Below, in pieces: positions 9,882-44,110 of a DNA stretch of 64,000 nt. Under the pieces are notes generated by a model. It searched no databases. It saw only the letters and a list, made by a program, of their open reading frames with translations, and was not told the DNA's origin. Every line of letters begins with the position of its first letter. Positions within the stretch are counted from its first letter, which is position 1. Source of the DNA: Octopus vulgaris (taxonomy: Eukaryota); the NCBI GenBank assembly GCA_951406725.2, contig OX597839.1, positions 32,364,001 to 32,428,000 on the forward strand, written 5' to 3'. Made by a program: the position numbers and the translations under genes.

Positions 9882-9953
9882 TTCACTACAGCTGTTTCAA
9901 ACGCATTCATTATTGATGAACAAGTGCAAAAACGAAAGTTTTCTTCGGGTGAA
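9882..9953 (-). ncRNA. Type I hammerhead motif (U4C core), between two (TA)n tracts
   Basis: Minus strand reads UUCAC-CCGAAGA-AAAC...GUUU-GAA-ACAGCUGU-A-GUGAA, with a palindromic stem III and a GUA site. Confidence 0.7.
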
Positions 9954-39027: not shown

Positions 39028-39120
39028 TTCATTAGCTTACAGCTGTTTCTGCTAAAAGAAGCAGCGCATTCAGCGCTGAGTACTTGTGCAACGTCTTATA
39101 ACTTCCTCAGAGTCATTGAA
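39028..39120 (-). ncRNA. degenerate Type I hammerhead motif
   Basis: Minus strand reads UUCAAUGACU-CUGAGGA-AGUUA...UAGCA-GAA-ACAGCUGU-A-AGCUAAUGAA, with imperfect stems I and II. Confidence 0.55.
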
Positions 39121-42504: not shown

Positions 42505-43888
42505 CGGAGTTAGTGAGCGCTTAATAAAGAGAGGGAGTATACATAACATGAGAGAAAGAGAAAGAATGAAAGAGCGAGAGAGGGAGGAAGGAGCGGGATA
42601 TTTGAGGATGTAAGCGGCTGTTGTTGAAGGCCCCTTGCGGCCAAAATACATTAAAGGAGATTTGCAAGAAAGATAGCGATAAGAGCTTGCAAGAAGAATG
42701 ATGGCGTCCGTTGACATCTTTCTCTGGCTGTGGCTATTCGAGATTTTTCGGTTAACTCGTTGCAGTCCCGCAAGACCCGGAGGGCAATAAAACTAGCACA
42801 AGTTAATTCAAAGGACCAGTATTCGGTGATACGACAGAGCTAAATATAATAAGCATTTTTTGAATTTGCTATTAGGCTGCACACTGGAAGAAAATATATA
42901 CTTGAAGAATGGGTTGGGTTTTTTTTCGGAAAGTGGGCCGCATCAGGCGGGCCGCACTACTAAGAAAATTGAAGCTTTTTTTTTTACAAGTATGTCCTCT
43001 ATTTGACTTTGTTTCCTCATAACTTTCAGAAAATGGATATTTTCAATGAAATCTTCTGAGCAGGCGTATACAATACACAAGGTATAACAATGAAAAAGAA
43101 GGGACATATTCATGGCATACAAAGGTTATTTTTAAGAAATGGGAGGAGAGGACGATAGAGATGTAGTCCTCCAGATACAGGATGACCTCTTGGGTTAAAC
43201 GAGGAACCCTACTATCAGAGATTTCCCTGAAACCCCAGGAGCAAGTGCCTTCTCCACTTCCATCTATCCGACTCACAAGTCTACACTTAGAGATACATAA
43301 AAGGTATTTATTGAAAATATAATTAATAAATGCTCATTTTATTTAAAGCTATGAGGAAACAAAGTCGAAGTTTACATCTATGCAGGTATGTCACTTATCT
43401 TTTGTTAAGCGTACTTTTCAGAAAGTCCCGCGAGCCGCAGGTTGTTCACGACTGGTATAGGCGTTGTATTCTTGAGCTCAAGACATTTCATTTCATGTTT
43501 CTCCTGTCAATTCAGCTATAGATGAGTTAACCTTGCGAGGGACTGGCGTCCCGTACAGGGGGAGATTGTAGGAATCTCAGTCACTTTTAGGCTATGGAAA
43601 CCGGCCCCGTGTGTCCAAGAGACAATACTTAATTGTATTTAACCGGTATTTTTACCTTATCAGGAAACGCGTAGCTCAGTGGTCAGTGTCGCGTGAAGGT
43701 TGAGGTTTCGATTCCTGTACCCTATATATATATGTATATATATGTATATATATAGGTTATAAGAGATAATGGTGTCACTGAGACCCAAAGGTGTCAGGCA
43801 ATGCTGCATAAGTGCTATAGACAGACCATAGTTAAGTTCTAGATTCGGTGATATAGCGAATAAAGGGTTCAACGTTGGTTCTATGTCA

Positions 43889-44110
43889 GCGTGTGTATAT
43901 AAGAATTTTTTTGCGTAATAAGATAAAAAAAACCAAGGCTGTGTAGATATTAGAGCATTTATAGATAGAAGGTCTTACAGCTGTTTCTAGGATATTATTA
44001 ATTAATATCCTAGAAACAGCTGTAAGACCTTCTATCTATAAATGCTCTAATATCTATACAGCCTTGGTTTTTTATCTTATTGTGCAAAAAATTCATATAT
44101 ATATACACGC
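43889..44110. repeat. ~220-bp palindrome (inverted Penelope-like pLTR junction)
   Basis: Arms of ~108 bp surround a 5-nt loop at 43998-44002. Each arm carries the hammerhead 3' half GAAACAGCTGTA. Confidence 0.9.

What the first reader, a model, noticed from the sequence alone, without database searches (positions are those of the whole stretch)
43889..44110. Long palindrome folded back at a hammerhead stem II
Seen: the right arm reads TAATATCCTA-GAA-ACAGCTGT-A-AGACC..., which is a stem II 3' strand, GAA, the same palindromic stem III as at 9888 and 39039, a GUA site and ~85 nt of tail to TA repeats. The left arm is its mirror, so the CUGANGA half has been replaced. Established: Penelope-like elements often carry inverted pLTR segments. 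Inference: cDNA snapped back on the ribozyme's own stem II and self-primed second-strand synthesis, giving an element with two 3' ends, both in TA context. This is a candidate mechanism for the inversions and a source of ~108-bp dsRNA or cruciform DNA.
Basis: partly seen in the sequence, partly recalled or inferred. Interest (0 to 1): 0.72.

Follow-up and report, generated by a model that had tools for sequence, protein, structure and literature searches.

The report
Head-to-head Penelope-type retroelement stump
This 222-base DNA palindrome is two truncated copies of a common non-coding, hammerhead-like retroelement joined head to head inside a TA microsatellite, a layout already known for Penelope-like elements and likely made by copying one RNA from both cut ends of the target, so it is an ordinary repeat copy with some mechanistic interest.

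Summary
The palindrome is real (71-nt arms 99% complementary; RNA hairpin -156 kcal/mol, z -27.6). It is not a stand-alone element. It is two 5'-truncated copies of a ~1.26-kb non-coding retroelement, joined head to head in a (TA)n run, with the join inside the self-complementary stem II of a hammerhead-like motif.

However, the family's ancestral 5' half-core reads CCGAUGA (619 exact copies). CUGAUGA (88) and CCAAUGA (70) look like CpG-decay products. Rfam finds no hammerhead.

In an unbiased sample, 20 of 80 family loci are head-to-head, and their junctions lie at many positions. None of the 20 lies in stem II; about 23 such loci were found genome-wide.

All 15 classifiable pairs join one short-end arm with one long-end arm (P = 6e-7). 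The two arms share subfamily markers, and the short arm usually reaches further 5'. This fits priming on both target strands of one RNA from two start sites, as shown in vitro for a Penelope-like element, better than a single cDNA snapping back.

The layout, the one-sided tail, the (TA)n targeting and a self-priming idea are all in print. This scan had already noted the short/long rule on other DNA of this genome. No autonomous partner was identified.

The parts
43722..43757 (.). TA-rich microsatellite on the left of the insertion (remnant of the target)
   Evidence: Sequence read. Inverted-repeat pairs I3 and I6 lie here. Read laying flags 43718-43759 as a skipped repeat.
43758..43896 (-). 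The 'tail': the extra ~140 nt (reference positions 1258-1118) that only the long arm carries. Its outer end is the element's distal 3' end, next to (TA)n.
   Evidence: BLAST of reference copy L113:1308-2566 on the window places 43758-44010 at ref 1255-1004 on the minus strand, 90.6% identity. The same stretch is conserved in the flanks of most two-armed copies and follows the short end in long single copies.
43897..44010 (-). Long arm proper, the antisense copy: arm, mirror of GAAACAGCTGTA (43976-43987) and stem II strand
43990..44010 (.). Stem II palindrome with the join. GGATATTA is at 43990-43997, loop TTAAT at 43998-44002, TAATATCC at 44003-44010. The loop has the sense orientation of the right (short) arm, so the join lies within 43990-43997.
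   Evidence: sequence compared with the non-inverted copies printed.
43993..44106 (+). Short arm, the sense copy (ref 1010-1122): 3' half-core GAAACAGCTGTA at 44013-44024, would-be cleavage site between 44024 and 44025, about 81 nt of arm, then the proximal 3' end in the TA run
   Evidence: BLAST (92.1% identity) and the motif scan.
44095..44105 (.). TA run at the right end (the element's internal TATATA site merged with the target microsatellite)
   Evidence: Other copies end here in (TA)n of varying length.

Best explanation
The palindrome is a head-to-head pair of 5'-truncated copies of a ~1.26-kb non-coding retroelement of Penelope type. It was likely laid down in one insertion into a (TA)n microsatellite, when both cut target strands primed reverse transcription of the same RNA.

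Shown:
- The family has a fixed 5' start, a 5'-truncation series and two discrete 3' ends. The short end lies 76 nt after the would-be hammerhead cleavage site; the long end lies 141 nt further on.
- A quarter of family loci are head-to-head pairs with the 3' ends pointing outward.
- Pairs join one short-end arm with one long-end arm.
- The two arms share subfamily markers but carry independent small errors.

Inferred:
- One strand primes at the proximal start site and gives the short arm.
- The other strand primes at the distal site on the same RNA and gives the long arm with its tail.
- The long-arm cDNA either stalls near the first priming site or follows until the two 3' ends meet. Each cDNA then serves as template to finish the other strand.
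- In this copy the two ends met in stem II of the hammerhead-like motif. Its self-complementary sequence would let two antisense cDNAs anneal over 8 nt.

The window copy has no 5' half-core on either arm, so it cannot fold into a hammerhead. As RNA it would be a ~108-bp hairpin.
For: Family and sense strand:
- There are 1295 exact genome matches to the 18-mer of the 3' half-core plus stem II, with 0 in the control.
- Mapped to L113:1308-2566, copies show 5' ends scattered from ref 1 to about 1050 and 3' ends at about 1117 or about 1258.
- No ORF above 116 aa is present.

Unbiased sample (the first 100 hits, which are 95 loci):
- 15 loci are not this family; 60 are single copies (43 short end, 15 long end, 2 other); 20 are head-to-head.
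- Of the 20 pairs, 15 are short+long, 0 short+short, 0 long+long, and 5 have one odd outer end. The expected share of short+long is 0.38; binomial P = 5.7e-7.
- The short arm reaches more than 25 nt further 5' in 8 pairs and the long arm in 1; 6 are within 25 nt.
- In 7 of the 15 the long arm stops at ref 1078-1195, near the proximal start site, as in classical twin priming.

All 57 head-to-head loci collected: 51 short+long, 4 short+short-like, 0 long+long, 1 unclear, 1 not classifiable.

Same template:
- Arm-to-arm distance is 0.101 against 0.120 +/- 0.0025 for shuffled partners (0 of 5000 shuffles reach it).
- Shared derived states number 58 against 22.6 +/- 4.6 (0 of 5000).
- Marker 1094 gives 27 TT, 14 CC and 3 discordant, where 20 discordant are expected.
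- A 3-nt indel and a T-run length are independent between arms (11 discordant, 10.9 expected).

Joins are abrupt, with a gap or overlap of a few nt outside palindromic sites.

Literature:
- A purified Penelope-like protein cleaves and extends both strands and starts RT at two internal sites, which explains the 'tail'. Those starts lie 85-92 nt after its hammerhead cut site (PMC11167929, main text read).
- An inverted 5'-truncated copy, a tail at one end only, and (TA)n targets are described for Penelope-like elements (PMC8557442, passages).
- The genome holds many RT+GIY-YIG ORFs.
Against: - No autonomous element sharing sequence with this family was found. The 781-aa RT+GIY-YIG family that was sampled has no similarity to it.
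- 'One RNA' cannot be told apart from two sister transcripts of one source.
- Large overlaps, with both arms copying the same 100-250 nt, are unlike L1 twin priming, where the median overlap is 12 bp (PMC12016303, passages). They require strand displacement, which is assumed here.
- Six of the 15 pairs are near-symmetric fold-backs, which a snap-back also predicts.
- In the in vitro study no difference in start site between the two strands was seen (PMC11167929).
- The 33 palindromic loci were found with the palindrome itself as query, so they form a biased set.
- Loop orientations were read by eye.
- All copies are old (about 5-20% diverged), so nothing was observed at insertion.
Confidence: 0.62

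Rival explanations
1. Snap-back, the first reader's model, related to the self-priming proposed for Penelope elements in 2013. One cDNA is primed at the 3' end and copied up to stem II. It folds back on the palindromic stem II and copies itself. The copy ends at the internal TATATA, where it joins the TA target.
For: - The join lies in a perfect 8-bp self-complementary stem.
- Six of 15 unbiased pairs are near-symmetric fold-backs with short loops.
- Arms share template markers.
- PMC3846280 (Discussion passage) interprets palindromes at inverted junctions as self-priming.
- A long-arm primary cDNA whose copy ends at the internal TA site would also give the short+long rule.
Against: - In the window copy loop II has the orientation of the short arm, not of the long arm.
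- Among the 23 stem-II joins the loop goes with the short arm in 9, with the long arm in 4, is symmetric in 4 and is unreadable in 6.
- In 12 further near-palindromic loci the short arm carries part or all of the 5' half-core that the long arm lacks; the reverse holds in 2 (read by eye).
- In the unbiased pairs the short arm reaches further 5' in 8 and the long arm in 1. In 7 pairs the long arm is only a 60-180-nt tail piece, so it cannot have been the template of the short arm.
- Joins occur all along the element; 0 of 20 lie in stem II.
Confidence: 0.17
2. DNA-level fold-back after insertion. A normal copy was converted into a palindrome by replication template switching or hairpin-mediated rearrangement at the stem II inverted repeat.
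For: Stem II is a natural short inverted repeat, which can seed palindrome formation. The locus lies in unstable (TA)n DNA.
Against: - This model would not produce the genome-wide short+long rule (15 of 15).
- It would not explain outer ends that coincide with the family's two 3' ends.
- It would not explain the loss of exactly the upstream ~1 kb in every case.
- At least 23 loci on many chromosomes share the same architecture.
Confidence: 0.05
3. Two independent insertions of the same family into one (TA)n hotspot that happen to face each other.
For: (TA)n runs are the family's target, and nested or adjacent insertions do occur. One example is the tail-to-tail pair in L088.
Against: - The arms abut with 0-3 nt or with overlap, and no TA repeat lies between them.
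- Head-to-head pairs number 20 against 1 tail-to-tail pair in the unbiased sample.
- The short+long rule holds.
- Subfamily markers are concordant: marker 1094 has 3 discordant pairs of 44, where 20 are expected.
Confidence: 0.03
4. A palindromic unit that spreads as such, either a TIR-bearing MITE with TA target duplications or a retrotransposing palindromic master copy.
For: About 35 two-armed copies of similar size with TA at both ends were found by BLAST.
Against: - The arms are unequal: one carries a 140-nt tail.
- The centres differ between copies.
- The short arm's outer end is never truncated, as 5' truncation of a palindromic RNA would cause.
- The non-palindromic form outnumbers it by far: only 7 strict palindromes against 1295 hits for the 18-mer of the 3' half-core plus stem II.
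Confidence: 0.03

Closest known systems
Insertions of endonuclease-bearing Penelope-like elements with an inverted 5'-truncated copy and a one-sided 'tail' (Arkhipova et al. 2013, PMC3846280; Craig et al. 2021, PMC8557442; passages read). The Hydra clade is the (TA)n-targeting, hammerhead-bearing clade reported in molluscs among others.
   Same: - 5' truncation.
- A head-to-head inverted copy abutting the direct one.
- An extension present at one end only.
- Insertion into (TA)n.
- A hammerhead-type motif close to the 3' end.
- A palindrome at the inverted junction.
   Different: - The element here is non-coding (~1.26 kb), and no coding partner with shared sequence was found.
- The tail is 141 nt, not 30-40 nt.
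- The box reads CCGAUGA in the family's ancestral form.
- Clade membership cannot be tested without the partner's RT.
In vitro mechanism of the Anolis Poseidon element PAc (Frangieh et al. 2024, PMC11167929; main text read)
   Same: - Both target strands are cut and extended.
- There are two internal RT start sites, and the interval between them is the 'tail'.
- The start sites lie a similar distance after the hammerhead cut site (85-92 nt there, 76 nt here for the short end).
- Targets are AT-rich.
- Hammerhead cleavage is not needed; here, no pile-up of 5' ends at the cut site was seen (0 of 60 single copies).
   Different: - That study saw no strand difference in start site and did not address inverted products.
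- Here genomic copies pair one start site with the other almost without exception.
- Both 3' ends here contain a TCTTATA-type TA motif that could pair with the target. The PAc start site is not homologous to its target.
L1 5' inversions by twin priming (Ostertag and Kazazian 2001, as cited and described in PMC12016303; passages read)
   Same: - Two cDNAs of opposite orientation are primed by the two target strands, one at the 3' end and one internally.
- About a fifth to a quarter of insertions are affected (18-22% for L1; 20 of 80 here).
- In 7 of 15 pairs the 3'-primed cDNA ends near the internal priming site.
   Different: - In L1 the two cDNAs overlap by a median of 12 bp. Here they often both copy the same 100-250 nt, giving true palindromes.
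- The internal site here is a fixed second start site, not a variable one.
Minimal hammerhead motifs of Penelope-like elements (Cervera and de la Pena 2014, PMC4209133; passages read)
   Same: - Long helix II (8-9 bp here).
- Short helix I (4 bp).
- An unpaired nucleotide after position 9.
- A palindromic helix III/loop 3 (ACAGCUGU) suited to dimer formation.
- Motifs 100-700 bp apart on opposite strands were noted in Schistosoma.
   Different: - C instead of U at core position 4 in the ancestral form. A U4C variant is known from a viroid and lowers activity in vitro (PMC3088659, Discussion passage).
- No G10.1-C11.1 pair.
- No Rfam match.
- The window copy lacks the 5' half altogether.

Membership tests
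Hammerhead ribozyme (type I, minimal Penelope variant) | 5' half-core CUGANGA | tested here: not met
   The window copy has no 5' half on either arm. Exact counts in the family are CCGATGA.. 619, CTGATGA.. 88 and CCAATGA.. 70. The ancestral form therefore has C at position 4, and the canonical box appears only as a CpG-decay product.
Hammerhead ribozyme (type I, minimal Penelope variant) | 3' half-core GAAA, an A15.1-U16.1 pair and a cleavable H17 | tested here: met
   GAAACAGCTGTA followed by AGACC is present on both arms and in the non-inverted copies.
Hammerhead ribozyme (type I, minimal Penelope variant) | [quoted passage not shown] | tested here: met
   Read from the non-inverted copies. 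Helix I is GTCT/AGAC (4 bp). Helix II is GGGATATTA/TAATATCCT (8-9 bp). There is an extra A after the box. ACAGCTGT is self-complementary. The features are those listed in PMC4209133. No covariation test was possible within one family.
Hammerhead ribozyme (type I, minimal Penelope variant) | Conserved G10.1-C11.1 pair | tested here: not met
   The base of helix II reads A..A or G.U, depending on the register.
Hammerhead ribozyme (type I, minimal Penelope variant) | Match to a curated hammerhead covariance model | tested here: not met
   There is no hammerhead hit in the window at gathering score. There is none at E<=1 in 5 loci, and none at E<=10 on a CTGATGA-bearing copy, L034:1470-1580. Minimal motifs without helix III may escape these models.
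Hammerhead ribozyme (type I, minimal Penelope variant) | Self-cleavage | not testable with these tools
   This needs transcription of monomer and dimer constructs. Indirectly, 0 of 60 single copies begin within 6 nt of the expected cut site.
Penelope-like element insertion (non-autonomous derivative) | 5' truncation with fixed 3' end(s), i.e. target-primed reverse transcription | tested here: met
   The 5' ends are scattered and the 3' ends lie at ref ~1117 or ~1258. Six of 11 long copies share the same 5' start.
Penelope-like element insertion (non-autonomous derivative) | An inverted 5'-truncated copy abutting head to head | tested here: met
   20 of 80 family loci in the unbiased sample, and 57 loci in all.
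Penelope-like element insertion (non-autonomous derivative) | An optional tail present at one end only | tested here: met
   All 15 classifiable pairs have the 141-nt extension on exactly one arm. In the full set the figure is 51 of 57.
Penelope-like element insertion (non-autonomous derivative) | AT-rich or (TA)n target | tested here: met
   Flanks printed are mostly (TA)n on both sides. In the window these are 43722-43757 and 44095-44105. No count was made.
Penelope-like element insertion (non-autonomous derivative) | Sequence shared with an autonomous RT+GIY-YIG element of the same genome | tested here: inconclusive
   GIY-YIG gave 6136 first-look candidates, and 148 of 150 scored candidates matched. 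Sixteen of the 148 lie in an open frame of 781 aa. That ORF matches GIY-YIG at 30.6 bits and RVT_1 at 28.9 bits, where the RVT_1 cut-off is 29.6. The 13 loci inspected share nothing with this element. Only one coding family was examined.
TIR MITE (DNA transposon) | Constant terminal inverted repeats with a fixed target duplication, and a family made of the palindromic unit | tested here: not met
   The arms are unequal. Only 7 strict palindromes occur against 1295 hits for the 18-mer of the 3' half-core plus stem II. The family majority is non-palindromic and 5'-truncated.
Metazoan non-LTR retrozymes | Short tandem units, each with a hammerhead, giving circular RNA | tested here: not met
   Copies are dispersed and up to 1.26 kb long, with one motif near the 3' end. 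The only tandem seen, in L039, repeats a 5' segment without the motif. Circular RNA was not testable.

The most novel reading that the evidence does not exclude
The near-strict pairing of one short-end arm with one long-end arm, the shared template markers, and the short arm's longer reach are a genomic record of how Penelope-like elements make their inverted repeats. A two-headed enzyme complex primes both target strands on a single RNA from two different start sites. The two cDNAs then finish each other. Self-complementary spots such as the hammerhead's stem II are places where they anneal.
Probability: 0.45. Interest if true: 0.55.

Novelty: new member of a known kind. Interest (0 to 1): 0.36.

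Why it matters
How Penelope-like elements build their inverted and tandem repeats is stated as an open question (PMC8557442). Biochemistry has so far shown only that both strands are cut and extended and that RT starts at two sites (PMC11167929). This abundant non-coding family gives hundreds of natural insertion products in which both start sites, both arms and the join can be read. The short+long rule and the marker concordance offer a testable model, namely one RNA, two primers and two start sites. For genome annotation, it shows that such palindromes in (TA)n are retroelement stumps and not MITEs, microRNA precursors or new ribozyme devices. Rfam's microRNA models score the hairpin at up to 64 bits, below their thresholds.

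Tried and rejected
- Rfam found no hammerhead in the window, in 5 family loci, on a canonical-box copy, or at the two other 12-mer sites. The only hits on the palindrome are sub-threshold microRNA-precursor models that respond to any long hairpin.
- tRNA-like stretch at 43655-43720 as a possible SINE head of the element: ARAGORN finds no tRNA, the genome search returns only itself, and none of the fetched loci holds it. It is a local flank, not part of the family.
- Coding capacity: the element has no ORF above 116 aa. The window's 19 longest ORFs have no RT or endonuclease domain.
- Autonomous partner: the 781-aa RT+GIY-YIG family shares no sequence or 12-mer with the element, so no partner was identified.
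- Expression: no RNA holder is listed for the locus. In four runs guessed to be RNA, contigs cover only the repeated part 43760-44102, and their loose ends come from other, non-inverted copies. The unique flanks have no cover. Nothing can be said about transcription or editing of this locus.
- DNA contigs of runs under four organism labels hold the left flank up to the TA run and, in three of the four, the junction of the right arm with its flank. The short contigs break in the repeat, so no empty site or full bridge was obtained.
- The following were considered and rejected, for the reasons given under rival explanations: a MITE, a retrotransposing palindromic master copy, two independent insertions, and post-insertion fold-back.
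- The 3-nt indel at ref 1046-1048 first looked like a subfamily marker that is discordant between arms. It behaves as an independent recurrent error, so it was dropped as evidence for two different templates.

Full report
**Observation.**
The stretch 43889-44110 is a long palindrome. Its arms 43927-43997 and 44003-44073 are 71 nt long and 99% complementary. Further arm pieces extend the symmetry out to 43891-44106. As RNA it folds into a single hairpin of -156.1 kcal/mol, against -38.8 +/- 4.25 for shuffles (z -27.6).

The centre reads GGATATTA-TTAAT-TAATATCC. The 12-mer GAAACAGCTGTA also occurs at 9887-9898 and 39038-39049 on the minus strand. Those two sites are not this family in the BLAST, and Rfam finds no hammerhead there.

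**It is a family member, and the palindrome is only part of the unit.**
A search of the window's own 2.8-Gb genome with the 222 nt gave 2207 first-look candidates. The 40 that were scored were mostly two-armed copies on many chromosomes. Aligning 21 of them with their flanks showed two things:
- On one side only, about 140 nt beyond the palindrome is conserved. In the window this runs down to 43758.
- Some copies have a non-palindromic centre with a CTGATGA box.

**The non-inverted form.**
Exact-pattern counts over the genome, each with 0 hits in the reversed control:
- 1295 for the 18-mer of the 3' half-core plus stem II.
- 619 for CCGATGAAGGGATATTAT.
- 88 for CTGATGAAGRGATATTAT.
- 70 for CCAATGAAGGGATATTAT.
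- 7 loci for a strict two-sided palindrome pattern.

The usual form reads..CACACCGTCT, a 7-nt box, A, GGGATATTA, TTAAT, TAATATCC, TA, GAAACAGCTGTA, AGACC.., and then the arm.
- The ancestral box is CCGAUGA. CUGAUGA and CCAAUGA have about equal counts, as expected for the two CpG-decay products.
- Helix I is only 4 bp.
- There is no G10.1-C11.1 pair.

The long helix II, the short helix I, the extra nucleotide after position 9 and the self-complementary ACAGCUGU are the features described for minimal hammerheads of Penelope-like elements (PMC4209133, passages read). A U4C variant is known from a viroid and lowers activity in vitro (PMC3088659, Discussion passage). Rfam's hammerhead models find nothing, even on a copy with the canonical box. 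I therefore call it a hammerhead-like motif of the Penelope type, with activity untested.

**The whole element.**
Walking upstream gave a non-coding unit of about 1.26 kb. I used the copy L113:1308-2566 as the coordinate system. On it:
- the box lies at ref 995;
- stem II lies at about 1003-1027;
- the would-be cleavage site follows 1041;
- a proximal 3' end lies at about 1117 (..TTCTTATATA);
- a distal 3' end lies at about 1258 (..TCTCTTATA);
- both ends run into (TA)n.

Six of 11 long copies share the same 5' start. No ORF exceeds 116 aa. Copies show a 5'-truncation series with these two discrete 3' ends. This identifies the hammerhead-sense strand as the RNA strand, and target-primed reverse transcription into TA repeats as the likely mode of spread.

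**Head-to-head pairs.**
Mapping all fetched loci gave 57 with an antisense copy abutting a sense copy, 3' ends pointing outward. Of these:
- 51 pair one short-end arm with one long-end arm;
- 4 are short+short-like;
- none is long+long;
- 1 is unclear;
- 1 could not be classified.

Thirty-three of these loci had been found with the palindrome itself as query. I therefore also took the first 100 genome hits of the 18-mer as an unbiased sample of 95 loci:
- 15 are other families.
- 60 are single copies: 43 short end, 15 long end, 2 other.
- 20 are head-to-head, which is 25% of the 80 family loci.
- Of the 20, 15 are short+long, none is short+short or long+long, and 5 have one odd outer end.
- The expected short+long share from the single copies is 0.38; binomial P = 5.7e-7.
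- The short arm reaches more than 25 nt further 5' in 8 pairs and the long arm in 1; 6 are within 25 nt.
- In 7 pairs the long arm is only a tail piece ending at ref 1078-1195, close to the proximal start site.
- None of the 20 has both inner ends in stem II.
- A site near ref 962 recurs in L063, L164, L187 and L192.
- Four of the 60 single copies begin in stem II; none begins within 6 nt of the cleavage site.

**Are the two arms copies of one template?**
The test used 85 aligned positions in 44 pairs.
- Arms differ by 0.101, against 0.120 +/- 0.0025 for shuffled partners (0 of 5000 shuffles reach it).
- Arms share 58 derived states, against 22.6 +/- 4.6 (0 of 5000).
- Marker 1094 gives 27 TT, 14 CC and 3 discordant pairs, where 20 discordant are expected. 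Marker 1074 gives 31, 9 and 4, where 16.5 are expected.
- A 3-nt indel and a T-run length are independent between arms: 11 discordant, 10.9 expected.

So the arms come from the same template or source, but each was synthesised with its own errors.

**The palindromic class.**
Twenty-three loci have both inner ends in stem II, and 12 of these hold at least one exact 18-mer. If the 20-in-100-hits rate holds over all 1295 hits, about 259 head-to-head loci are expected genome-wide. The palindromic class would then be about 5% of them. That estimate is compatible with 0 of 20 in the sample.

Their centres differ. Reading the sequences printed by eye, with the long arm on the left:
- loop II has the orientation of the short arm in 9 (including the window copy);
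- it has the orientation of the long arm in 4;
- it is symmetric in 4;
- it is unreadable in 6.

In 12 further near-palindromic loci the short arm carries part or all of the 5' half-core that the long arm lacks. The reverse holds in 2 loci.

The short arm's outer end is always at about ref 1117, so there is no sign of a palindromic master RNA undergoing 5' truncation. These joins therefore arose repeatedly, but stem II is one junction site among many.

**Mechanism.**
Shown: two discrete 3' ends, the short+long rule, shared template markers, independent arm errors, the short arm's longer reach, and abrupt joins.

Inferred: both strands of the cut TA target prime on one RNA.
- One strand primes at the proximal site and gives the short arm.
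- The other strand primes at the distal site, which is still free, and gives the long arm with its tail.
- The second cDNA either stalls near the first priming site (7 of 15 pairs) or follows until the two 3' ends meet (6 of 15 near-symmetric joins).
- Each cDNA then templates completion of the other strand.
- Where the ends meet in stem II, two antisense cDNAs can anneal over its 8-nt self-complementary strand. This gives a perfect palindrome, as in the window.

This agrees with in vitro work on an Anolis Penelope-like element (PMC11167929, main text read):
- Both strands are cleaved and extended.
- RT starts at two internal sites, and the interval between them is the 'tail'.
- The start sites lie 85-92 nt after the hammerhead cut site (76 nt here).
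- Cleavage by the hammerhead is not required.

It also resembles L1 twin priming (PMC12016303, passages read), except that the overlaps here are much larger.

It remains possible for some near-symmetric joins. It does not explain the arms' unequal content, including that of the window copy.

**Link to Penelope-like elements.**
The published hallmarks are all present: 5' truncation, an inverted 5'-truncated copy at the 5' end, a tail at one end only, and (TA)n targets. Hammerheads are universal in the (TA)n-targeting Hydra clade, which also occurs in molluscs (PMC8557442, passages read).

The genome holds many RT+GIY-YIG ORFs. The search gave 6136 first-look GIY-YIG candidates, and 16 of the 148 listed matches lie in an open 781-aa frame (domains). 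The family I inspected shares no sequence with this element, so the partner is not identified and clade membership is open.

**Other data.**
DNA contigs from runs under four organism labels hold the left flank up to the TA run, and those of three of the four hold the junction of the right arm with its flank. The insertion is therefore probably old. No RNA holder is listed for the locus. Contigs in runs guessed to be RNA cover only the repeat itself.

Earlier notes of this scan describe the same head-to-head layout, and the same short-end/long-end rule, on another piece of this genome. My counts were made independently on different loci, and they agree.

**Verdict.**
The proposed mechanism is neither new nor the best fit. 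This is a new member of a known kind, of moderate interest for the mechanism of Penelope-type insertion.

Noticed in passing
window 43655-43720: A tRNA-like stretch with box A/B-like motifs lies directly left of the TA run. ARAGORN calls no tRNA. The genome search returns only itself, and none of the other fetched loci holds it. It is not part of the family, and its origin is unknown.
   Followed up: partly
window 9887-9898 and 39038-39049 (minus strand): The same 12-mer GAAACAGCTGTA occurs twice more. Only about 0.008 chance occurrences are expected in 128 kb of two strands. The first sits in a ~125-nt insert between two (TA)n runs, with a TGATGAA on the opposite strand. It is possibly another head-to-head stump of a related family. 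Neither site matches this family or any Rfam hammerhead.
   Followed up: partly
L136:1406-5087, L137, L138 (G000 C16, C17, C2): An abundant Penelope-like family has an apparently intact 781-aa ORF that matches RVT_1 just under its cut-off and GIY-YIG above its cut-off. A 359-378-aa upstream ORF precedes it. The copies have direct flanking repeats and end next to (TA)n. Sixteen of the 148 listed GIY-YIG matches lie in a 781-aa open frame. The loci inspected have no GAAACAGCTGTA motif, and no CYGATGA box occurs anywhere in L136.
   Followed up: partly
L039 (G000 C2:97155466-97158483): Three tandem units of about 470 bp are made from the element's 5' region (ref ~464-924), upstream of a normal 3' part. 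The repeated unit does not include the hammerhead-like motif.
   Followed up: no
genome-wide counts: CpG decay of the ancestral CCGATGA box creates the canonical hammerhead box CTGATGA in 88 dead copies, about as often as the other decay product CCAATGA (70). Motif scans for CUGANGA would therefore pick out decayed copies rather than the source form.
   Followed up: yes
15 of 95 loci of the unbiased sample (e.g. L074, L081, L084): Other repeat families share the exact 18-mer ATATCCTAGAAACAGCTG but not the rest of the element. L081 has a CTGATGA box with a different stem II. This suggests several families built around one motif.
   Followed up: no
window 43940-44060: Rfam microRNA-precursor models (MIR6217, MIR4208, mir-999, let-7 and others) score the hairpin at 43-64 bits, all below their gathering scores. 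This shows how such stumps could be mis-annotated as microRNA genes.
   Followed up: yes
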